Part shown: positions 1 through 24,700 of the stretch, piece after piece
How positions within the stretch are numbered: the stretch's first letter is position 1
Layout: each line of letters starts with the position of its first letter
Source: a virus
Taxonomy: Duplodnaviria; Heunggongvirae; Uroviricota; Caudoviricetes
Virus record (IMG/VR): IMGVR_UViG_2703718856_000006
Span: 1-30,141 of that record
DNA: 30,141 nucleotides
Strand: one strand, 5' to 3'
The notes under the pieces: generated by a model
What the model was told of the DNA's origin: nothing
What the model saw: only the letters and a program-made list of their open reading frames with translations
Database searches by the model: none
Program-made: the position numbers and the translations under genes

Positions 1-558
1 TCAGCTAGCTGGAAACTTTTTATACAGAGTTGAGAGCCCTACTCCATACGTTTTTGATACGCTTTGTCGTGATTCACCGGTTGCCATCCGCTCCCCCATT
101 TCCCGCCATTGCTCATCCGTGAACTTAGGCCTGCGACCACCAACTCGCCATTTTGCCCTGGCTACGGCCAGCCCTGCTAAGGTACGTTCGCTATTAAGAT
201 CAGATTCATATTGTGCTGCGGAAAGGATGTTACGAAAGTTATAGCGGCCGCTGGCTGTTTTGAGATCCACGCCATCGGTAATACTGCGGAAGTTGATACC
301 CTTTTCCTGTAACTGCTGGAACATCAACAGCGCATGCAGAACGTTGCGGCCTATCCTGTCCAGCTTCCACACCACCAGTGTATCGCCCGCATTCAGAGTC
401 CGCAGAAGCTTTTTGAGCGCTGGCCGGTTCGCTACCGTCCCGCTCATTTTTTCTTCAAAAACCTGTTCACATCCTGCGCGTTCGAGAGCTTGGCGCTGGA
501 GATCTGTATTTTGGTCATTTGTTGACACTCTGACATAGCCAATTTGCATATTTTTCAC
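1..558 (-). CDS. Serine DNA invertase (Gin/Pin/Hin/Cin family site-specific recombinase)
   Basis: Translation contains the N-terminal catalytic motif IGYVRVSTNDQNTDLQR and a C-terminal HTH (GVGLSTLYKKFPA), near-colinear with Mu Gin as recalled. Two in-frame ATGs (558 and 549); the second gives MQIGYVRVS, matching the Gin N-terminus. Lies directly beside an inverted-repeat-bounded segment. Confidence 0.9.
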   Translation of the reverse strand: MKNMQIGYVRVSTNDQNTDLQRQALERAGCEQVFEEKMSGTVANRPALKKLLRTLNAGDTLVVWKLDRIGRNVLHALLMFQQLQEKGINFRSITDGVDLKTASGRYNFRNILSAAQYESDLNSERTLAGLAVARAKWRVGGRRPKFTDEQWREMGERMATGESRQSVSKTYGVGLSTLYKKFPAS

Positions 559-583
559 CCAATAAATTCTGCAAAAAAATCAG

Positions 584-1462
584 GTGAAGTTATCGGCCAG
601 GCCGGCCCGTGGCAATCTATTAAACGTCGGTTTAGGAGATAGCGTCACAGCCAACTTCGGAAGCCTCGAGATTGGTGCAAAAAAAGCCTCTTCTGCAAGC
701 TTCATCGATTTTCATTTTCTTGGCACCAACGACTATGACGCACGCATCCTTTGTGGCGGCAATTCTAATGGCGCCATGGGGAAAGGAGACCTCACATTTT
801 ACGCAGGGAAATACGTTTTTATCGGCGATAGCTTTGAATTTCGTAATCCAATTACCTGCCAGAACAGCATCAGCGCATCGGCAAAAATAGCGACGACTGC
901 TGATATGGAATGCAAAACTAAAATTGCTGTTTTGGCCCCAGCTGACAATCAAGATGCCCATGTGTGGTTCTATGGCACAGGTGGGGCATCCAGGGGAGTT
1001 ATTTATTCCAGGCAAACAGGAATTATTCAGATCCGTCCTGACAACAATGATAATGGGGGCTCCAACGGATACTCTTTTGCATTTGGGGCTGATGGTAAGT
1101 TCACCTGCGTCACGATGAATCAGACTTCGGATGAACGAGTTAAATTCGACAAAGAGCCCGTCAGTAACGCTCTGGAGAAGATTTGTTCCCTGACGGGTTA
1201 TACGTTCGGCATCCAGTTGACTGAATCGGAATCGGTGCACAGCGCAGGCATCATCGCTCAGGATTTGGAAAAAGTGTTGCCCGTTGCTGTAAGTGCTGGC
1301 GCAAACGGCATTACTCCGACCGGAGAAGAGATTAACGATCTCAAAACCGTGGATTACAGCGCAATGAGCGCACTGTATGTGGAAGCGATTAAGGAGCTCT
1401 ACGACAGGGTAAGGAGCATGGAAAATGAGTTGGCTAATCTACAAGTTCGTTCAGGAGGCTAG
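584..1462 (+). CDS. Tail-fibre distal module B with C-terminal intramolecular chaperone-like domain (S74-like)
   Basis: 292-aa frame, open from 566 and starting at GTG 584 in the ORF track; first ATG is codon 65. C-terminal region has SDERVKFDKEP followed by AGIIAQDLEKVLPV and YVEAIKELYDRVRSMENELANLQ, recalled as the endosialidase-type self-cleaving chaperone pattern. Frame reads through site L. Confidence 0.6.
   Translation: MKLSARPARGNLLNVGLGDSVTANFGSLEIGAKKASSASFIDFHFLGTNDYDARILCGGNSNGAMGKGDLTFYAGKYVFIGDSFEFRNPITCQNSISASAKIATTADMECKTKIAVLAPADNQDAHVWFYGTGGASRGVIYSRQTGIIQIRPDNNDNGGSNGYSFAFGADGKFTCVTMNQTSDERVKFDKEPVSNALEKICSLTGYTFGIQLTESESVHSAGIIAQDLEKVLPVAVSAGANGITPTGEEINDLKTVDYSAMSALYVEAIKELYDRVRSMENELANLQVRSGG
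621..637. repeat. Left crossover site of invertible segment (gix/hix-like)
   Basis: Plus strand TAAACGTCGGTTTAGGA. Positions 626-637 (GTCGGTTTAGGA) are the exact reverse complement of 2139-2150; the match extends to 16 of 17 bp against 2139-2155. The AAACC core resembles Gin/Hin half-sites. 63 bp from the invertase start. Confidence 0.75.
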
Positions 1463-2150
1463 ATTTACTTGCCCGAGCCTGAAGTTGTAAAAGCTTTCAT
1501 TGCCTGTTCCAAACTAGCCAGCCGCTCCTCATGCCGATGAATCGTTTTCATTGCTACTTGTAACGCACAAAGGAGGTCAAGGATAATCGCGTTATTATCG
1601 AGAACAAGCCTTTCCCTATAGCCATGGGTAATTTTATTCCCTTCTTCATCAAACTCCTCTGTGCCGTCAGGTTCTCGGGTGTGCTTGACGTACAGAGGCT
1701 CAACCAGCTCCGCTTGTTGTGCGATAATCCCCCTCCGCACTCTCCGTTTTTCATCATCAATGTACTTAAATTTTCGCAGTTCCAGCGCTAGTATTTTTTC
1801 CACGGACTCCTGCCCGTCAAACTCCTCAATATCGCATTTGAAATTGATATCTGAGGTTCCAGCTAAAGCCAGTGTGCCCCCTGCAGCTGGGAAATTAATA
1901 ACCCATTGTCCTACCGAGTTTATGCGATTGCGACGCGCTATATAAAATAGAGGTGTTGCTCCAGGGTCGCCACCGGCCATTTCAATAAGATTTGTACTAC
2001 CTACAGCATCTTCATTATTTGACAAAGAAGTCAGGCTAAATGATGCATATGAAGCACTTTTTCTTACCGCCAGATTGTCACTAAACGTATTCCCCTTGTT
2101 TGTCATGGCAAGATAGGAACCATCCAAAAGCGCAGCTGTTCCTAAACCGA
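626..2150. other. Putative invertible DNA segment (~1.5 kb) carrying two alternative tail-fibre tip modules
   Basis: Bounded by the inverted repeats, adjacent to a Gin-family invertase, and contains two convergent ORFs with fibre-tip features. The reading frame passes through the site in both orientations, and both copies encode VGLG. Confidence 0.7.
1465..2127 (-). CDS. Tail-fibre distal module A with C-terminal chaperone-like domain
   Basis: ORF track starts at TTG 2127; first ATG at 2106-2104 (MTNKGNTF...). C-terminal DDEKRRVRRGIIAQQAELVEPLYVK ... LASLEQAMK parallels module B. Frame is open from 2157 through site R. Converges tail-to-tail with module B (stops 3 bp apart). Confidence 0.6.
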   Translation of the reverse strand: MDGSYLAMTNKGNTFSDNLAVRKSASYASFSLTSLSNNEDAVGSTNLIEMAGGDPGATPLFYIARRNRINSVGQWVINFPAAGGTLALAGTSDINFKCDIEEFDGQESVEKILALELRKFKYIDDEKRRVRRGIIAQQAELVEPLYVKHTREPDGTEEFDEEGNKITHGYRERLVLDNNAIILDLLCALQVAMKTIHRHEERLASLEQAMKAFTTSGSGK

Positions 2151-2155
2151 CCTTT
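2139..2155. repeat. Right crossover site of invertible segment (gix/hix-like)
   Basis: Plus strand TCCTAAACCGACCTTTA, inverted partner of 621-637 (12/12 perfect core, 16/17 extended). Confidence 0.75.
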
Positions 2156-2207
2156 AGTCACCATCACCGGCAGTCATGGCCAGCTCCGCAGCTCTCATTC
2201 TTTGGTT

Positions 2208-3446
2208 TTACAAAGAATCGGCAGGCATTTCGACACGCACGGACACAAACTGGTCACGGGGGATATCGACCGGGTCGCCATCATTGATACCCTGTAGCTC
2301 GTTCCTGGCGAACGCCGGTGCTTCCGGGTGTGTACGGTGATAGGTTTTCACCAGCACAGAACCGTCCGCATTAACTTCATAATCGAGCCAAATCAGCGGC
2401 TGCTTGTTGCGGTCAGTGGGGATATCAAAACCGCCGTCTATGCCTCCCCACGCGGCATCAGCATTAAGCCCCATACAGCCTTCAATGAGATATGCTCCGG
2501 TATTAATACGGGTTACAGTGCATCCTGCTGACTCATCATTCAAATGGAATGAACCATCGCTAAATATTTTGACGACTGGCGATGCTACTTTTAGTGTGCC
2601 GTCACTGGCCTTTGTAGTATTTCCTGTGCTGTAAAATTCGACAAGTTGCCCGTTATAAGTCGCATCACTACTCAACGTTCTTAAGTACAACTTGGGCTTT
2701 GTGGCGATAATAGTTGGGATGATTAACTGATACATGGTGTTGGCATCATACGGCACTTCGATCAACGAAACGTTATTGTCTATGCCACCAAGTAACATTA
2801 ATGCTCGATAGAACCCAGCCCCTACGCGGTCATCCTGATGAATCCTATTCATACCATTGCTGCCGACCCCGAAATCTCCGACTGCGAGCATTGAACCAGA
2901 AGTGCTATACGCGTCACGAGTGGCGCTACTTCCTAAACCGAGGTTTGTGCGAGCGGCTTCTTTGGTTTTTGCGCCGGTCCCACCCTGGTCAATACTCAAT
3001 GCTGTACTTAGCCCTTTCAGCTCTGTGATATCGCTATTTGCCCCTTTCCGGGCGAGACCACCGATGGCAGGAATGCTGAGGCTGGTGCCGTTGATTGTCA
3101 CAGTGACCAGTTGGTTCGCTGAGGTACTGGCGAACGTTTCCCACGCACCGATATTCTCGTCATACTCATTGATGAGCTGAGACATGGCCTGTGCCAGTCC
3201 ATCAACCGAGATAATGTCTGATACCAGAATGCCGTACTTCTGGCCGCTCAGCGCCGGGGAAGCAGCTGGAGTAACCGTCATTGACGTGGCGCTGTTCACG
3301 GATGAAATCTGAAACAGCTGCACCGGGTTAGACATCACGATAATCGTCTGGCCAGCGCGGACCTGGCTGGCCGGTGCCGTCCAGTTTGTACCCGTCCCGG
3401 TGGCGGTATTTCCATTAATGGCGATGGTGCCGGTGTTATAAAGCAT
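2208..3446 (-). CDS. Side tail fibre protein (Stf-like)
   Basis: ORF track gives 2208..3461 from TTG; the ATG at 3446 (MLYNTGTIAINGNTATGTGTNWT) has a GGAG Shine-Dalgarno 5 nt upstream. Contains the fibre-typical IDQGGTGAKTKEAARTNLGLG motif. TAA stop at 2208-2210. Confidence 0.75.
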   Translation of the reverse strand: MLYNTGTIAINGNTATGTGTNWTAPASQVRAGQTIIVMSNPVQLFQISSVNSATSMTVTPAASPALSGQKYGILVSDIISVDGLAQAMSQLINEYDENIGAWETFASTSANQLVTVTINGTSLSIPAIGGLARKGANSDITELKGLSTALSIDQGGTGAKTKEAARTNLGLGSSATRDAYSTSGSMLAVGDFGVGSNGMNRIHQDDRVGAGFYRALMLLGGIDNNVSLIEVPYDANTMYQLIIPTIIATKPKLYLRTLSSDATYNGQLVEFYSTGNTTKASDGTLKVASPVVKIFSDGSFHLNDESAGCTVTRINTGAYLIEGCMGLNADAAWGGIDGGFDIPTDRNKQPLIWLDYEVNADGSVLVKTYHRTHPEAPAFARNELQGINDGDPVDIPRDQFVSVRVEMPADSL

Positions 3447-3462
3447 ATTTTCTCCAGGCAAT

Positions 3463-3485
3463 AAAAAAACCCCGCCGGAGCGAGG
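3463..3485 (-). terminator. Rho-independent terminator between lipoprotein gene and stf
   Basis: Minus-strand RNA CCUCGC-UCCG-GCGGGG (6-bp stem with one G-U) followed by U7; sits 17 nt upstream of the stf ATG. Confidence 0.55.
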
Positions 3486-3506
3486 TTTATGTTTAAGCGT
3501 AGTGGG

Positions 3507-3740
3507 TTATTTGCAGGTTGTTTCGGTAAATGTATTCGCACTTACCCAGCGCCAGCTGAAAGGATATCCAGCCCGGTACTGCGTCTGGTTGTTTTGTTTA
3601 CGCACACCGTAAATCTGAACCGTAGTTTCCTGACCGCCAACGATTGCAGTGCCGCTGCAAACTGGTTCCTGTTTCTCAATTACGCCAGCGCATCCTGTAA
3701 GCATGACAGCGCCTGCCATGCAGATAATCAGTTTTCTCAT
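3507..3740 (-). CDS. Small lipoprotein, possibly Cor/Llp-like superinfection-exclusion protein
   Basis: 77 aa with signal peptide MRKLIICMAGAVMLTGC and lipobox LTGC. Lies between J and stf, where phi80/HK022-type phages carry cor. The functional assignment is inference from position and size. Confidence 0.5.
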   Translation of the reverse strand: MRKLIICMAGAVMLTGCAGVIEKQEPVCSGTAIVGGQETTVQIYGVRKQNNQTQYRAGYPFSWRWVSANTFTETTCK

Positions 3741-3851
3741 TTTGATAGTATCCAGAGGAATTCAGTATCTTAGACGATAACAATACAATTCTGGTGGGTA
3801 TAATTGATTGGATAGATCAATATTATGTTATTGATCGCTAAAAACGATCAA

Positions 3852-4526
3852 TCAATCATAGGCCGCTGTATTTATGGCGGTTAATGAAATGCCAGTATTC
3901 GTTCCCCCTCCAGGTGAACCTGCCCCAGTGGAGGTCCCCCCTGCGTTTATCCTCGTATTGGCCCCGTCAAACCTGCATGAAGAATAAGCATTTATCGTGT
4001 AGATAGTCGGAGGCTGGGTTGAATTATTCACAATGATGGTCTGACCCAACTGAGCAGGTGCAACGGCCCATGACCCGCTCAGCGTCTGGTCAATATTTAT
4101 CCCGCCGTTTGCACCAGGCGTGCCAACCGTCTGCAGGTCTGATAGCACACGGGACTCATTAGTTAACACAAGCTTTCCGCTCGCATCCCATATTGCCAAA
4201 CCCCATTTCGGTAATATCTGCGGGAATATGGCAAAAACGTACGCCGTTAAAGTGAAACTTTGGTTGTAGGGATTAACACCAGCAACATACACATTACCGC
4301 CGTTCCTGTAAGACATAACCGGAGTGGGCTGTGCTGTATTGGTGGTTTTGATAAAAACCATCACTGGGTAATCAGCGTTTAAAGCGATATTTTGAGCAAC
4401 CTGCTGAGAACTGCCATTCGCGGATGAATTGAAGGTATACTTCCCGTAAAGACAGAAAGGCGTTGATTGTGGCGTTACAAAGGGATTCCCGTTATCCATT
4501 AATATCATCGCGCCAAATTCGGCCAT
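3852..4526 (-). CDS. Hypothetical protein (224 aa), paralogue of the upstream 100-aa ORF
   Basis: Long ORF in operon orientation with ATGA overlap to the upstream gene; shares the W-D-A-S-G ... SGSW motif with it. Confidence 0.55.
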   Translation of the reverse strand: MAEFGAMILMDNGNPFVTPQSTPFCLYGKYTFNSSANGSSQQVAQNIALNADYPVMVFIKTTNTAQPTPVMSYRNGGNVYVAGVNPYNQSFTLTAYVFAIFPQILPKWGLAIWDASGKLVLTNESRVLSDLQTVGTPGANGGINIDQTLSGSWAVAPAQLGQTIIVNNSTQPPTIYTINAYSSCRFDGANTRINAGGTSTGAGSPGGGTNTGISLTAINTAAYD

Positions 4527-4828
4527 TATGCTTTCTCCATGAAAACGACCACCTCACATTTAGAGGCCGGGTAATTACCCAGGCCCACAGAAGAGGCTGC
4601 GGTTACGGTTATTGTGTTCCCTGACGCGACAATGCTCCTCCCTACGCTGTTACCTCCTTCATCAAGTGAGAGCGCAAAACCGACCTTCATTCCTGAGGGT
4701 ACAGTGAAAGACCAGCTGCCGGAGTTTTGTCCGGCGGCAAGTTGTATACGTCCAACAACGGAAACGGGCTTGATTCCGTAGTTGTTGGGGTTTCCCGAAG
4801 CATCCCAGGTCTGTATTCCATAAGCCAT
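4526..4828 (-). CDS. Hypothetical protein (100 aa) downstream of J
   Basis: Starts 2 bp after the J stop; contains QTWDASGNPNNYG and SGSWSF, paralogous to the following ORF. Confidence 0.5.
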   Translation of the reverse strand: MAYGIQTWDASGNPNNYGIKPVSVVGRIQLAAGQNSGSWSFTVPSGMKVGFALSLDEGGNSVGRSIVASGNTITVTAASSVGLGNYPASKCEVVVFMEKA

Positions 4829-4829
4829 A

Positions 4830-7800
4830 TCAGAACACCCCCGTTAATCGGCCAACCTGCACTCTCAGAACGTTGTTGCCATCCTTGACGCTGATTGTCT
4901 GGTTGGTCTGCTTCATGGCTCCCTCCCCAGCTGTCGAACCGTAGTTCTCAAACGTCCCGGACTTATCCAGTTTCCAGCCAACAGAGCCGGCAACATAATT
5001 GTTCGACTGGATGTAATTGCCAATTTTTGCATTGCTTATGGTCCCGTCGCCAATGACTGTATCCCTGATAATGGCCTGGCCATTCTGGATAACGAACGGC
5101 AGTGTTACAGTCCCGCCGACCATAGTAGTCACGGCGAAACGGTCTGCCAGGAAGATTACCTGTGACTGCATGCCGGAGGGTGTATTTTGAACCCCTATAC
5201 CCATCCCGGCAGCGTAATACTGCCCGTTACTGGACACCCCCACCTTGATGTTATACATCGCGCTGAGGTTACCGTTTACATCTGCTATAGCCTGTGCGTT
5301 GACGTTTATCGCTGCACTGTTTTCGCCTGATTTAACAGTCAGAGTGTTGATTTTTGTTGCCGAAGCCTGGGTGAAATCAGCAAGAGTTTCTGTCAGGTCC
5401 GTTGAGTTAGAGATATTGCCACCAGCTTCTGCATCCAGTGTGACCAGCGCGCGTGCGACCGCCTGGCTGGTATCGGCAATCGTAGTATCCACTCTGTCTA
5501 TACTGGCACTGTTCCCGGCGTTTGTTGCTGTCTGGGAACGACGACTGACAACCTGCGCCAGCCCATTCTGGATTATCGCAATTGCCGAATTCTTCACGCC
5601 TCCTGTCATACCGTCCATTGAAACGGAAATCTCATCGATTTTTACCGCCGCCTGCGCCAGCCCGTCAGCGTTTTCCTGTATATCTTTCGCCTGCTGCTCC
5701 AGCTCGTCTGCATGGTTTTTGATTTCGTCAGCCATGCCAGCAATTTTTTCGTTGCTGTCCACCGCGTTCTCGATCAGGTCTTTGAACGTTTCCGACTCTT
5801 TCATATCCTCCAGAATGTCATTAGTTATTTCGCTGACATCTATCGAGGACGTGCCCATGATCCAGTCGGTCCAGTCCCCGGCGTTACCGATACGGTCAAT
5901 CAGGCGCGCGCGGTACCACTGGCGAACGCCGGCAGGCATGGGGCCATGCTGATAATCTGCAGCCGGGTACGGCACCAGGACCAGCAGTTCAGGATTGGCG
6001 TAGTCGGCAGTTGTGGCGCGCTGAATCTCTGTATAGGCCGTGTCGCCTGAGCCATCCGGAAATTTCCAGGTCAGGTCGATATGCCAGACCACATCTTCGG
6101 TCGCCAGGAAGTTGAGCGGAGTACCCGGTTTTCCCGTTTTACCGGAGAGATAAGTTGTTTCACCGTATCCCCATGGTGACGACGTATCCTGCGCATTCAG
6201 CGCCCGTACGCGCACGTCATAGCTGCCCGAATAAATGCCCTGAACCGAGAAACCCTGCGCGCTGGTAACCGGAACGTTTATCCAGTCCCCGTTGTCCTTA
6301 CGCCACTGGGCAACATACCGGATTGCGCCCTCTACCTTATCCCATGACACGTCCAGGCTTGCTACAGTCAGCCCCTGAGACACATGATCGCTCTCAGTCA
6401 CCACGATATTCTTCGGAGCAGACAGGACGCTTATCGGCGTGACGGTGATCGGGGGAGACTCGACCCGAACGCCGTCATCGATGTAACGATATTTGTTTGG
6501 ATCGTGCTGAACGGCCGTAATAGTGAAACCGCCTGTACTGTCGTCGTTAGCCGCGATTGAGGTGACCCTGAAGTACTGTATTGCGAGGTTATCACTGTCT
6601 ATCGCCCAAACAGCGCCCGCCACAGGAACCTGACTGAATGCCGTAGCCACCGTCACCGTTTTTTTATCGGCGCTCACCGCGCTGATTGTCCGCGTCTGGG
6701 CTTTTCCGTCGGGAAGGTTAACCACCAGCCGGTCTTTCGCCGCGTAGTCTATTTCTCGATCGAGGGTAATTTGGCGGCCGTTGGCCGCGCTTATACGGCC
6801 CCCGTTCTCCTTACCAGAGCGGAAAGGATCGGCGACACCGATAATTTCAGCGGGCAAAGGGATATAACCGTCCAGCCCCACGCCAAACGATACGGTCCCG
6901 TCTTTGGCATTGGAGAGCAATACCCAGCGACCGCGTCGGTGCGCTTCACTTTGCGAGGTGCAGCCGATTGCGGTCAGGGACGTCTGCCGGACGTCGTAAC
7001 GTTCTACAAGCGCCGAATCGTAAACCCCCTCAACGGTATCGCTGTAATGGTTCTGCGGATCGGACCAGGACACCAGGCAGGAGCTGTAGCGATTCTTGTA
7101 TGAGCCGCCCGCATAAGTAAACAGCCCATCGATAACGTTTGAGACGTTATAAACCCAGTCAACATCGTCCTGCGGGACGTCTGCCTGGACATAAATCTGA
7201 TCGTTGCCCCAGAACGTTATTCCACGAAATACCGCGGCGAGATCGTTAAGTACCTGCCAGGCGTCCTCCTGGCTCTGAATGAAAACGTTGCAGGTGAAAC
7301 GCGGTTCGGTGCCACCGGCCCCGTCGGAAACCATTTCGTCACAGTACTGGGCGATTGAATACAGCGCCCACTTATCCACCATGGACGCATCCACGCGCGT
7401 GCCCATGCCGTAAATTTCATCCAGAACCAGATCGTAAAAGATCCAGGCAGGGTTATTGGACCATGCCATTTTGAACCCGCCGGACCATGAACCAGAATAG
7501 GTTCGGGTTTTCGGATCGTAATTATCCGGAACCTTAATCAGCTTGCCTTTTATCTTACAGGTCACTTTCGGCGCGCTGCCGTTGAATTGGCTGCTGTCCA
7601 CTTCGACATACAGGAGCGCTGTTAAAGGATAACGAAGCTTGCTGTCGATGACTTCCGCATACGAAAACACCTTGAAGGCGTTAACCAGTTTCGAATTTGA
7701 TCCGCTGGCATCAGCCGTAATACGCCTGACCCTGACAGACCAGCCGGACGTGGATTTTGGCAGATCGATACGGTGGTCACGCTGATATTCCGTCGTGGTC

Positions 7801-8321
7801 TTTCCGTCAAACTTGCCGTTTACAACCGTTTTCCAGGCGCCGCCGTCCGTTGATAAATCGATCGCATACTCGGTGACCGTGCCCACCATATCGCCATTAT
7901 CTTTATAGAGATACTGGACCGGAAGGCTGAGCTTGATACGGATGGCATCCAGGGAAAGGTTTGTAAACTGGCGCGTCCAGGGCGCGGTGGTGGTGACAGT
8001 TGTGCCCACGGCCAGCTCGTTGTCGACCTGGGGCATCCCGGCAATATAGGTCTGGTCCTGTGTGCCCTTGCGGAACTCCCATTTCACGCCGCTGAAGTTG
8101 TATTCCCCGCTGTCGTTTGCCAGCGGCGTATCGTTGAGAAAAATGTTCTGAGCGGTCAGGTCGCCCTGTATTTCCCCCTCAGAAACGGCAATGAGCATTT
8201 TTAATTTTGCGACCGACAGCAGATCGTCAGGCTGCTCAACCGGAGTATGTGAACTGCCACCTCCCCCTTTGGCACCCTGCAGGATGGTTTCTTGTTTAAG
8301 AAGCTGCATTTTTTCACCCAT
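4830..8321 (-). CDS. J: Host specificity / central tail fibre protein J
   Basis: 1163 aa; N-terminus (GSSHTPVEQPDDLLSVAKL...SEGEIQG) and conserved internal blocks (GGTEPRFTCN, FTITAVQHDPNKY) match lambda gpJ as recalled. Position after I. Confidence 0.9.
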   Translation of the reverse strand: MGEKMQLLKQETILQGAKGGGGSSHTPVEQPDDLLSVAKLKMLIAVSEGEIQGDLTAQNIFLNDTPLANDSGEYNFSGVKWEFRKGTQDQTYIAGMPQVDNELAVGTTVTTTAPWTRQFTNLSLDAIRIKLSLPVQYLYKDNGDMVGTVTEYAIDLSTDGGAWKTVVNGKFDGKTTTEYQRDHRIDLPKSTSGWSVRVRRITADASGSNSKLVNAFKVFSYAEVIDSKLRYPLTALLYVEVDSSQFNGSAPKVTCKIKGKLIKVPDNYDPKTRTYSGSWSGGFKMAWSNNPAWIFYDLVLDEIYGMGTRVDASMVDKWALYSIAQYCDEMVSDGAGGTEPRFTCNVFIQSQEDAWQVLNDLAAVFRGITFWGNDQIYVQADVPQDDVDWVYNVSNVIDGLFTYAGGSYKNRYSSCLVSWSDPQNHYSDTVEGVYDSALVERYDVRQTSLTAIGCTSQSEAHRRGRWVLLSNAKDGTVSFGVGLDGYIPLPAEIIGVADPFRSGKENGGRISAANGRQITLDREIDYAAKDRLVVNLPDGKAQTRTISAVSADKKTVTVATAFSQVPVAGAVWAIDSDNLAIQYFRVTSIAANDDSTGGFTITAVQHDPNKYRYIDDGVRVESPPITVTPISVLSAPKNIVVTESDHVSQGLTVASLDVSWDKVEGAIRYVAQWRKDNGDWINVPVTSAQGFSVQGIYSGSYDVRVRALNAQDTSSPWGYGETTYLSGKTGKPGTPLNFLATEDVVWHIDLTWKFPDGSGDTAYTEIQRATTADYANPELLVLVPYPAADYQHGPMPAGVRQWYRARLIDRIGNAGDWTDWIMGTSSIDVSEITNDILEDMKESETFKDLIENAVDSNEKIAGMADEIKNHADELEQQAKDIQENADGLAQAAVKIDEISVSMDGMTGGVKNSAIAIIQNGLAQVVSRRSQTATNAGNSASIDRVDTTIADTSQAVARALVTLDAEAGGNISNSTDLTETLADFTQASATKINTLTVKSGENSAAINVNAQAIADVNGNLSAMYNIKVGVSSNGQYYAAGMGIGVQNTPSGMQSQVIFLADRFAVTTMVGGTVTLPFVIQNGQAIIRDTVIGDGTISNAKIGNYIQSNNYVAGSVGWKLDKSGTFENYGSTAGEGAMKQTNQTISVKDGNNVLRVQVGRLTGVF

Positions 8322-23797: not shown

Positions 23798-24700
23798 TTA
23801 AGACTGGATATTCCAAATCATTGCGTTACCGTTATGATTTTCAATGATTTTTGCCAGTGGTGCTCCACCAAAAGAATGCATGTAGCTGTGATGTATAGTC
23901 AAAACCAAATCTTGAAGTACTTGATCACTTTCAAGTTCGGTAACATTCAACCCAATTTTCTGCGCCTTATCAAAATGAATATGACGCGAGTGGGTATAGG
24001 TTGTGTGATGGTTGTTTAACTCTGAACAAACATGTGTTGCTTTTGATTCTGCCTCAGGATCATTATCAAACATGCCTGTCATAAGCCAATGCTTAACAAT
24101 CTCATTTGCCCATTTGATTGCTTTCTCACACTCGCCGATGATCGTCGGGTTTAGCTTTTGAAGAATGAACTGCCACATCTGAACAGCTGCGGGATTTTGA
24201 AAAATTTCCGTCTGCGCACGATTCCATTCTTCAATGATGGCATGGGTGGAGAAACCGTTGAACTGAGGATCAATTGGGCCAATGTTGGACTGTTTACCCA
24301 TGATGATTTCATTGGCACAACATGCAAGCATAGTTCCGCAGGACATTGAAATCATAGGAACAATTGCTCTGATGTTAGTTCCAAACTTCGACCTTAAGTA
24401 ATGCCCGATTGATTCCAAAGCGGCAATATCACCACCTGGAGTATGAAGTATCAAATCCAACCCTTTTGATACATCTAAACCATTGATGGCTGTCATCAAC
24501 CCGTTCTTATCATCATCAGTCATCTGAGTAAGATGGCGTACTTCTGCACCACCATGCTGTAACCACCCTGAGTAATATGTGATTACATTTCTTCCAGTAT
24601 GATTCGAAAGTTGAGATAAGTATTTACGGCGAACCTCATCCATAGGACTTTTATGGGCGAGAGCCGTTATCTCGCCCAGTACGTCGCTCCAATTAGGCAT
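23798..24700 (-). CDS. ClpP/crotonase-fold serine peptidase (S49/SppA/SDH-like), cargo gene
   Basis: 300 aa with ILHTPGGDIAALESIGHYLR and PMISMSCGTMLACCANEI. AT-rich, unlike neighbouring phage genes. Sits between the lysis cassette and cos. Confidence 0.6.
   Translation of the reverse strand: MPNWSDVLGEITALAHKSPMDEVRRKYLSQLSNHTGRNVITYYSGWLQHGGAEVRHLTQMTDDDKNGLMTAINGLDVSKGLDLILHTPGGDIAALESIGHYLRSKFGTNIRAIVPMISMSCGTMLACCANEIIMGKQSNIGPIDPQFNGFSTHAIIEEWNRAQTEIFQNPAAVQMWQFILQKLNPTIIGECEKAIKWANEIVKHWLMTGMFDNDPEAESKATHVCSELNNHHTTYTHSRHIHFDKAQKIGLNVTELESDQVLQDLVLTIHHSYMHSFGGAPLAKIIENHNGNAMIWNIQS

What the first reader, a model, noticed from the sequence alone, without database searches (positions are those of the whole stretch)
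3852..4828. Paralogous pair of unknown proteins directly after J
Two adjacent ORFs (100 and 224 aa, ATGA-coupled) share a W-D-A-S-G ... SGSW motif block, suggesting a duplicated domain. They occupy the slot where lambda has lom and other phages carry receptor-accessory or exclusion genes. I do not recognise the family.
Basis: seen in the sequence. Interest (0 to 1): 0.5.

Follow-up and report, generated by a model that had tools for sequence, protein, structure and literature searches.

The report
Split receptor-binding module at phage tail tip

Summary
On the minus strand, J (4830-8321) is followed by a 100-aa ORF (A, 4526-4828) and a 224-aa ORF (B, 3852-4526). Both carry WDASG and SGSW. The overlap is TAATG, not ATGA.

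The window is about 99.8% identical to phage mEp237. A and B are phi80 gp22/gp23, equivalent to T1 gp32/gp31 (PHROG 557/425). Several papers already call this cassette the FhuA-type receptor-binding locus downstream of gpJ, so it is not a new family.

The shared motif is the start of a repeated unit: an N-terminal arm plus a seven-strand beta-sandwich. A has one unit and B has two.

The cassette co-occurs with cor, the FhuA-blocking lipoprotein, and with a matching 38-residue J tail.

Best reading (about 0.68): a virion tail-tip FhuA-binding module, inferred and not shown experimentally. Neither protein has a signal peptide or membrane segment, which argues against a lom-like or exclusion role.

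The parts
4830..8321 (-). Central tail fibre / tip attachment protein J (1163 aa), ending in a Phage_Tail_Tip domain rather than a lambda-type receptor-binding domain
   Evidence: ORF. Pfam FNIII-A_GpJ, Phage-tail_3 and Phage_Tail_Tip (residues 1005-1140).
4833..4946 (-). Last ~38 residues of J (NYGSTAGEGAMKQTNQTISVKDGNNVLRVQVGRLTGVF). This tail co-varies with the downstream cassette type and is the presumed docking site for A/B.
   Evidence: Alignment of J C-termini from loci with different cassettes. An A/B-type tail and an 'L009-type' tail are kept even when the rest of J diverges.
4526..4828 (-). ORF A, 100 aa (phi80 gp22 / T1 gp32 homologue, PHROG 557). It is one arm + beta-sandwich unit and is the proposed adaptor between the J tip and B.
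   Evidence: AF2 pLDDT 84.8, 7 strands after an N-terminal arm. About 78% mean identity across the family.
4790..4825 (-). Arm motif of A (residues 2-13, AYGIQTWDASGN)
   Evidence: W8 and G4 are invariant in the family.
4215..4526 (-). ORF B unit 1 (residues 1-104): arm FGAMILMDNGNPF plus a variable 7-strand sandwich core
   Evidence: The arm is 77% conserved and the core 43%.
3852..4214 (-). ORF B unit 2 (residues 105-224 plus stop): arm KWGLAIWDASGKLVLTNESRVL plus a variable sandwich core and a conserved C-terminal AINTAAYD
   Evidence: An N-terminal-arm HMM hits residues 108-124 of the B homologue.
4173..4208 (-).
3741..3851 (-). Intergenic region with promoter-like sites for cor. It separates the J-A-B late genes from the moron.
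   Evidence: minus-strand sites 3884-3855 and 3851-3822. Consensus matches only.
3507..3740 (-). cor, the FhuA-blocking superinfection-exclusion lipoprotein (77 aa). It is the cognate exclusion gene of the cassette.
   Evidence: NCBIfam NF047972 lamb_exclu_cor, E 9e-42. Co-occurs with A/B in 14 of 15 loci, the exception being cut by a contig end.
3467..3488 (-). Terminator-like hairpin after cor
   Evidence: 9-bp stem followed by a T run.

Best explanation

The module is built from three copies of one unit, an N-terminal beta-hairpin arm followed by a seven-strand beta-sandwich. A carries one unit and B carries two.

The conserved arms, the inter-unit junction and the C-terminal tail of B, together with the highly conserved A, dock onto the cassette-specific last ~38 residues of the J trimer. 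The variable sandwich cores of B contact the outer-membrane receptor FhuA.

This is the same job that the single-chain, three-unit DUF6453 protein RBPOeko does on LptD. The adjacent cor lipoprotein then blocks FhuA in the infected or lysogenic cell.

Shown here: gene order and packing, family identity, the repeat architecture, fold similarity to a solved RBP, bridging sequences, and co-variation with cor and with the J tail.

Inferred: presence in the virion, B as the FhuA-contacting chain, A as the adaptor, and the stoichiometry.
For: Identity. The window is 99.8% identical to phage mEp237 and 87% to phi80, with the order J, gp22(100), gp23(224), cor, tail fibre. B has homologues in 350 phage records, including T1 orf31. 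PHROG 557/425 match at E 3e-36 and 1e-80.

Packing. The junctions are TGA-T-ATG and TAATG within the Q-dependent late operon. cor is flanked by promoter-like sites and a terminator-like site.

Not membrane proteins. There is no signal peptide and the maximum KD19 hydropathy is 1.1-1.2. The models are all-beta and soluble.

Bridging sequences. Proteins of 331-336 aa encoded directly after J (L035, L053, L082, L045) hit both the B HMM (E 8.5e-6, 1e-5, 7e-4, 0.016) and the Rtp44/DUF6453 HMM (E 3.4e-6, 9e-14, 1.5e-5, 3.6e-8). Each shows three arms.

Repeat test. An HMM trained only on start-codon-defined N-termini finds one internal hit at residues 102-116 in 11 of 14 ~220-aa proteins. It finds one at residues 220-242 in 5 of 8 ~330-aa proteins and none in 9 ~100-aa proteins. 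Shuffled 95th percentiles are 1.6 bits or less, against real medians of 6-8 bits for the ~220-aa and ~330-aa proteins.

Conservation. In B, the arms and junction are 77-80% identical and the cores 43-44%. A is 78% identical overall. The conserved arms are also B's least confident regions in the monomer model, as expected for partner-dependent interface segments.

Association. 14 of 15 loci with a B-family gene carry cor, and the exception is cut by a contig end. No DUF6453 locus carries cor. The J C-terminal tail co-varies with cassette type.

Literature. The cassette tracks FhuA use in T1, HK022, N15, ES18, phi80 and the BASEL phages (PMC13164509, PMC8594841, bioRxiv 10.64898/2026.04.02.716166). 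AF2-multimer places the homologous pair on the J tip and the ~23-kDa protein on FhuA (PMC12309495). RBPOeko-LptDE has been solved (PMC12685063).
Against: There is no direct experiment on this pair.

LC-MS/MS of T1-like phage SH6 virions did not list the homologues (PMC5238451). One to three copies per virion could easily be missed.

The T1 cryo-EM study could not resolve the J C-terminus or anything attached to it (PMC11945409).

One group, finding no Foldseek or HHpred hits, guessed a role in superinfection exclusion (PMC13164509).

Similarity of B to 9rpt_C is at the fold level only, with 11% identity. B does not reach Pfam DUF6453, and no PDB sequence hit was found even with a family profile.

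The correspondence between A and the first DUF6453 unit rests on weak alignments (E 0.016-0.08).

Homologues of the pair in Stx phage 24B go with BamA rather than FhuA (PMC12309495). Receptor identity is therefore not a property of the family as such.

FhuA dependence of this particular phage was not verified here.
Confidence: 0.68

Rival explanations
1. J's own tip, or a trimer of the small protein A (proposed by others to resemble the lambda J C-terminal domain), is the FhuA-binding element. B would then be only a cap, plug or trigger protein.
For: Lewis et al. treated J as the RBP of FhuA phages (PMC10373560). Matusiak et al. model A homologues as a trimer on the J tip (PMC12309495). A is encoded first and is translationally close to J.
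Confidence: 0.13
2. A and B are non-virion assembly factors, that is chaperones for folding or trimerising the J tip or for attaching the side tail fibres. They would be discarded before the particle is complete.
For: They sit between J and the side tail fibre gene. They were not listed in a T1-like virion proteome. Small genes next to fibre genes are often chaperones.
Against: In T1 and Rtp-like genomes the cassette is far from the lateral fibre gene and still follows J. The cassette tracks the terminal receptor and cor rather than the fibre type (PMC13164509). B's homologue class has been solved bound to its receptor (PMC12685063). Neither protein matches any Pfam or NCBIfam family at all, so none of the catalogued fibre-chaperone families is hit.
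Confidence: 0.1
3. A and B are membrane-associated partners of Cor in superinfection exclusion or lysogenic conversion. [quoted passage not shown]
For: PHROG and RefSeq names. Constant linkage to cor. Suggested in PMC13164509.
Confidence: 0.06
4. The shared motif is coincidental or convergent, a common strand-turn in beta-sandwiches. On this reading A and B are not related.
For: BLASTP finds only 10 residues (E 0.029). A shared 5-mer occurs in 4% of shuffles. SGSW-x-F/W-x-x-P also occurs in unrelated repeat proteins. The A profile did not retrieve B-like proteins from 1.8 billion representatives.
Against: The profile-level match has E about 1e-5 and scores well above the controls. The whole-domain A/B-N alignment agrees strand by strand with independent structure predictions. 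The same arm sits at the N-terminus and the midpoint in several unrelated-looking cassette families.
Confidence: 0.03

Closest known systems
phi80 gp22/gp23, T1 gp32/gp31, N15/HK022/ES18 equivalents (PHROG 557 + 425): the 'FhuA-type bona fide RBP locus' downstream of gpJ
   Same: Same family. B is 100% identical to mEp237's, 93% to phi80's and about 53% to T1's. The order J, ~100 aa, ~224 aa, cor is the same.
   Different: Nothing material. This is that locus. Its function is still assigned only by comparative genomics and modelling (PMC8594841, PMC12309495, bioRxiv 10.64898/2026.04.02.716166).
DUF6453 (PF20051) receptor-binding proteins: RBPOeko (PDB 9RPT chain C) and Rtp44, which bind LptDE
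   Different: DUF6453 proteins are one chain with three units, whereas A and B split as 1+2. The receptor differs (LptD against, presumably, FhuA). B does not reach the Pfam model. In Rtp the gene is convergent with J. Identity is 11%.
Dhillonvirus JLBYU60 YP_010740311/YP_010740312, Stx phage 24B and Pseudomonas phage 98PfluR60PP pairs ('Ig-like' + 'hand-like' proteins, Matusiak et al. 2025)
   Same: Same pair in the same position. The Dhillonvirus proteins are about 58% identical to B. The proposal there is also a tail-spike tip cap that binds the receptor.
   Different: Their model has three copies of the small protein plus one of the larger. It does not note that the two proteins share a repeated unit or that they relate to DUF6453.
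T5 pb5 with Llp
   Same: Functional analogue: a monomeric RBP held non-covalently at the tip of a trimeric fibre, binding FhuA, and paired with a lipoprotein that blocks FhuA from the periplasm (PMC9586334; PMC13164509).
Lambda lom and the lambda J C-terminal receptor-binding domain
   Same: Same position relative to J (lom). Same task of receptor recognition at the tip (J C-terminus).
   Different: Lom is a signal-peptide-bearing outer-membrane barrel expressed from the prophage. A and B have neither feature. Lambda carries its RBD covalently on J, whereas this J ends in a Phage_Tail_Tip domain plus a short cassette-specific tail.

Membership tests
phi80 gp22/gp23-type cassette (PHROG 557/425; FhuA-type RBP locus) | Sequence homology of both proteins to the family | tested here: met
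   PHROG E 3e-36 and 1e-80. 93% identity to phi80 gp23 and about 53% to T1 orf31.
phi80 gp22/gp23-type cassette (PHROG 557/425; FhuA-type RBP locus) | Position immediately downstream of a J homologue that lacks its own distal receptor-binding domain | tested here: met
   TGA-T-ATG junction. J ends in Phage_Tail_Tip. Same synteny in Citrobacter prophages and in other viral contigs.
phi80 gp22/gp23-type cassette (PHROG 557/425; FhuA-type RBP locus) | Adjacent cor exclusion lipoprotein | tested here: met
   NF047972, E 9e-42. 14 of 15 B-family loci carry cor.
phi80 gp22/gp23-type cassette (PHROG 557/425; FhuA-type RBP locus) | Phage depends on FhuA, and the proteins sit on the virion and bind FhuA | not testable with these tools
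   Only literature correlation for relatives (PMC13164509, PMC8594841). No experiment exists on these proteins.
DUF6453 (PF20051) RBPs (RBPOeko/Rtp44) | Match to the Pfam model | tested here: not met
   No PF20051 hit for A or B at E <= 1. Rtp44 scores 1.4e-113.
DUF6453 (PF20051) RBPs (RBPOeko/Rtp44) | Same fold as the solved RBP | tested here: met
DUF6453 (PF20051) RBPs (RBPOeko/Rtp44) | Transitive sequence link through intermediates | tested here: met
   L035, L053 and L082 are significant against both HMMs in a 766-sequence set.
DUF6453 (PF20051) RBPs (RBPOeko/Rtp44) | Single chain of about 310 aa with three units | tested here: not met
   Here the units are split 100 + 224 aa. I therefore file this as a related split variant of the superfamily, not as a DUF6453 member.
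Lom / outer-membrane or membrane-associated proteins (database names) | Signal peptide or lipobox, a membrane-spanning barrel or helix, and expression from the prophage | tested here: not met
   No basic/hydrophobic N-terminus and maximum KD19 of 1.1-1.2. Soluble sandwich models. Packed tightly behind J in the late operon.
T5 pb5-type RBP | Sequence or fold similarity to pb5 | tested here: not met
H-type lectin-like beta-sandwich | Fold similarity to SLL-2 / Helix pomatia agglutinin | tested here: inconclusive
Lambda J C-terminal Ig-like RBD (claimed for the small protein in PMC12309495) | Fold similarity of A to the lambda J C-terminal domain | tested here: not met

The most novel reading that the evidence does not exclude
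All the 'unrelated' receptor-binding cassettes encoded next to gpJ in small siphophages and lambdoid prophages may be one superfamily built from a triplicated ~100-residue arm + sandwich unit. The FhuA-type pairs, the LptD-type DUF6453 proteins and several unnamed pair families would all belong to it. The three units would come either as one chain (3-in-1) or as two chains (1+2). They would form a pseudo-threefold cap in which three homologous arms dock onto the three identical C-terminal tails of the J trimer. That arrangement would convert threefold symmetry into a single asymmetric receptor-binding face. Cassette swaps that carry the last ~38 residues of J would then be the general way these phages change receptor.
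Probability: 0.35. Interest if true: 0.6.

Novelty: already known. Interest (0 to 1): 0.38.

Why it matters
T1 and phi80 are classical phages, yet their FhuA-binding protein has never been shown biochemically. The evidence here ties the gp22/gp23-type pair to an experimentally solved RBP of the same genomic slot. It also predicts which parts hold onto J (the arms, the junction and A) and which parts read the receptor (B's variable cores).

If the three-unit, split-or-fused architecture holds generally, it would unify cassette families that current receptor-prediction work treats as unrelated. It would give a rule for finding RBPs after any J-like gene. It would also define the exchange unit, cassette plus J tail, for engineering host range.

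Tried and rejected
- Pfam and NCBIfam scans of A and B gave nothing meaningful.
- PDB sequence searches with single sequences and with family profiles gave nothing.
- A full-database HMM search with the A family found about 73 representatives. Almost all were ~100-aa stand-alone proteins and none was B-like. The multi-stretch hits to giant proteins were unrelated SGSW-type repeat proteins.
- A Foldseek search of A against viral predicted structures gave only weak hits (best E 8e-3), including the Pseudomonas phage 98PfluR60PP small protein. It did not settle the A/B relationship.
- An arm HMM built from A and B-C alone found no further copy in the window and only sub-threshold matches in Rtp44.
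- Virion-proteome evidence was sought. SH6 lists no homologue, and the mEpimmI proteomics paper concerns another phage group.
- A literature search for 'mEp237' returned only DOI noise.
- The Tai defence paper on phi80 concerns the J C-terminus, not A or B.
- I could not superpose my own models, because no coordinates are returned.

Full report
**Observation.** The coordinates hold two real, tightly packed ORFs on the minus strand, directly after the 1163-aa J gene (4830-8321). A is 100 aa (4526-4828) and B is 224 aa (3852-4526).

Reading the DNA shows J's TGA followed by one base and then A's ATG. A's TAA shares its last A with B's ATG, giving TAATG.

WDASG occurs at A residues 8-12 and B residues 113-117. 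SGSW occurs at A residues 36-39 and B residues 150-153. In 20,000 composition-preserving shuffles, a shared 5-mer followed colinearly by a shared 4-mer appeared in 0.37% of trials. BLASTP alone reports only the first block (E 0.029).

**What the locus is.** The stretch 3400-5200 is 99.8% identical to phage mEp237 and 87% to phi80. In phi80 the genes are annotated gp22 (100 aa) and gp23 (224 aa), lying between J and cor.

tblastn finds B in 350 phage records: phi80-likes, Dhillonvirus, T1 and other Drexlerviridae, and Klebsiella siphophages. T1 has the same order, orf33 (J), orf32, orf31, cor.

PHROG 557 and 425 match at 3e-36 and 1e-80. [quoted passage not shown] Pfam, NCBIfam and PDB sequence searches are empty.

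The next gene downstream, 3507-3740, is the exclusion lipoprotein Cor (NF047972, 9e-42). It has promoter-like sites in the 110-bp spacer and a strong terminator-like hairpin after it.

The rest of the window is a lambdoid late region on the same strand: NinB, RusA, Q, holin, endolysin, Rz, terminase and onward to the tail genes. A and B therefore belong to the late structural operon, and cor is a moron beside it.

**Literature.**
- The cassette was noted in T1, HK022, N15, ES18 and phi80, all FhuA phages, and tracks FhuA use in the BASEL collection (PMC13164509).
- A 2026 preprint confirms the correlation with receptor type but describes the FhuA, BtuB, LptD and YncD families as unrelated.
- Matusiak et al. 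modelled the homologous Dhillonvirus pair as a cap on the J tip, with the ~23-kDa protein facing FhuA (PMC12309495).
- The KanT1 authors found no Foldseek or HHpred hits and guessed an exclusion role.
- The T1 cryo-EM study could not see the J C-terminus.
- A T1-like virion proteome did not list the homologues.

No experiment has addressed these two proteins directly.

**Structure.** With family alignments, AlphaFold2 gives confident all-beta models. B has pLDDT 86.4 and pTM 0.83. A has pLDDT 84.8 and pTM 0.76.

Each of A, B(1-104) and B(105-224) reads as a short N-terminal hairpin arm followed by seven strands. In B the arm and junction regions are the least confident in the monomer models (block means 51-55 for residues 1-20 and 72-84 for residues 101-150) and the most conserved. 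B's arms and junction are 77-80% identical across the family, against 43-44% for its sandwich cores. A's arm is likewise its least confident stretch (65-75) and A is conserved throughout (83% arm, 73% core). Low confidence with high conservation is typical of segments that fold against a partner.

**Repeat architecture.** Profile-profile alignment joins A's N-terminal arm to B's internal arm (E about 1e-5, score 35, controls 19 or less). It also aligns A over its whole length with B's N-terminal half (score 20.8, controls 12.5 or less). That second alignment places the independently predicted strands in register.

Rtp44, which is 33% identical to RBPOeko, visibly contains three ~100-aa repeats with similar starts. 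Direct profile comparisons with A and B are in register but weak.

I therefore scanned 80 viral contigs carrying J relatives and looked at what follows J. Of the 69 loci that could be analysed, 13 have A+B+Cor and 10 have DUF6453-profile hits: 9 single ORFs of 314-351 aa and one gene split in two. Many others have a different-looking pair of ~100 aa plus 205-230 aa.

Nearly all of these proteins begin with x-G-h-x-h-x-[D/N]-x-x-G. I trained an HMM only on these start-codon-defined N-termini (31 non-redundant sequences). It finds exactly one internal match at residues 102-116 in 11 of 14 non-redundant ~220-aa proteins. It finds one at residues 220-242 in 5 of 8 ~330-aa proteins, and none in 9 ~100-aa proteins. 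Shuffled 95th percentiles are 0.2-1.6 bits, against real medians of 6-8 bits for the ~220-aa and ~330-aa proteins.

Four ~330-aa proteins (L035, L053, L082, L045) are significant or near-significant against both the B HMM and the Rtp44/DUF6453 HMM. Each shows three arms, for example MSDLGFAAYGDDG, HWGISVQGMRG and SWGLAIWNDSGRLVFSS.

A+B (324 aa) is therefore best seen as a 1+2 split version of a three-unit RBP that other phages encode as one chain.

**Coupling to J and to cor.** The last ~38 residues of J fall into types that follow the cassette. A/B loci share ...FENYGSTAGEGAMKQTNQTISVKDGNNVLRVQVGRLTGVF. Loci with another pair family share ...FEINGVAGGGRMLISS...RVRMGLW, even when the rest of J is divergent. 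Some loci with that second tail have a J otherwise about 90% identical to this one.

Cor accompanies 14 of 15 B-family loci, and the exception is cut by a contig end. It accompanies none of the DUF6453 loci. Other cassette types have their own adjacent lipoproteins.

**Mechanism and rivals.** My best reading, at about 0.68, has four parts:
- A and B are virion tail-tip proteins.
- Their conserved arms, the junction and A itself bind the J tails.
- B's variable cores bind FhuA.
- cor protects the infected cell by blocking the same receptor.

The steps shown are listed under Best explanation. Virion location, the FhuA contact and the stoichiometry are inferred.

Rivals:
- J or an A trimer binds FhuA and B is only a cap (0.13).
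- Both are non-virion assembly factors (0.10).
- Both are membrane partners of Cor (0.06). This is contradicted by the lack of any export signal or hydrophobic segment and by the operon structure.
- The motif is coincidental (0.03).

**Novelty and limits.** The genes and the idea that they form an RBP locus are already in the databases and the literature, so I rate the feature as already known.

Two points may be new. One is that the small and large proteins share a repeated unit. The other is that the FhuA-type pair is a split relative of the DUF6453 LptD-binding RBPs, which recent work treats as unrelated. I found neither point in the papers I read.

The limits are these:
- All structures of A and B are predictions.
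- I could not superpose models or run complex predictions.
- The A-to-first-unit correspondence is weak.
- FhuA dependence of this particular phage is assumed from cor and from close relatives.

Noticed in passing
window 1-2946: A serine DNA invertase (1-558, minus strand; Resolvase + HTH_7) lies next to crossover-like inverted repeats at 621-648, 2140-2156 and 2920-2946. There are two alternative tail-fibre C-terminal segments (584-1462 on the plus strand, 1465-2127 on the minus strand), each with a Peptidase_S74 chaperone domain. One crossover site lies inside the 417-aa side tail fibre ORF (2208-3461). This looks like a multi-segment invertible host-range switch for the side fibres.
   Followed up: partly
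window 3467-3851: cor behaves as a self-contained moron inside the late operon. Promoter-like sites lie in the 110-bp spacer after B, and a 9-bp-stem terminator-like hairpin follows the gene.
   Followed up: partly
window 23798-24700 (minus strand): A 300-aa ORF of unknown function (phrog_11747, E 2e-138) sits between the Rz spanin and the small terminase. That position often holds defence or counter-defence cargo in phi80-like phages. Its orientation differs from that of the phi80 tai gene described in PMC11364771.
   Followed up: no
L009-L011, L015, L029 (about 0-1400 bp after J): Phages whose J is up to about 90% identical to this one carry a different ~100-aa + 213-aa pair (MPQGLQCWD... 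and MSGFEVYNSAGK...). In L009 and L010 a 120-aa lipoprotein lies on the opposite strand. All five share a distinct last ~35 residues of J. This is a likely cassette for another, unidentified receptor.
   Followed up: partly
L062:3707-4697: A DUF6453-like gene after J is broken into two ORFs (179 + 112 aa), with the second starting exactly at the third arm (MAPQPGTGLNIFNAAG...). It is either a frameshifted pseudogene or a natural 2+1 split, complementary to the 1+2 split seen here.
   Followed up: no
database proteins P0256, P0060, P0091, P0283: These are chimeric ORFs from decayed prophages or assemblies. P0256 is the J C-terminus fused in frame to A. P0060 and P0091 are unrelated tail-protein N-termini fused to the C-terminal part of B. 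P0283 is the first 36 residues of A fused to the side tail fibre. They explain odd names such as 'TipJ family' on B-like hits.
   Followed up: partly
L002:6753-7688 (Rtp44) and the DUF6453 family: The Pfam family DUF6453, treated as a single ~290-residue domain, is visibly a triple repeat of ~100 residues. The repeats start MAQGIYIDLNDG, GQGIYVADSTDF and GPGINIFNSNNQ.
   Followed up: partly
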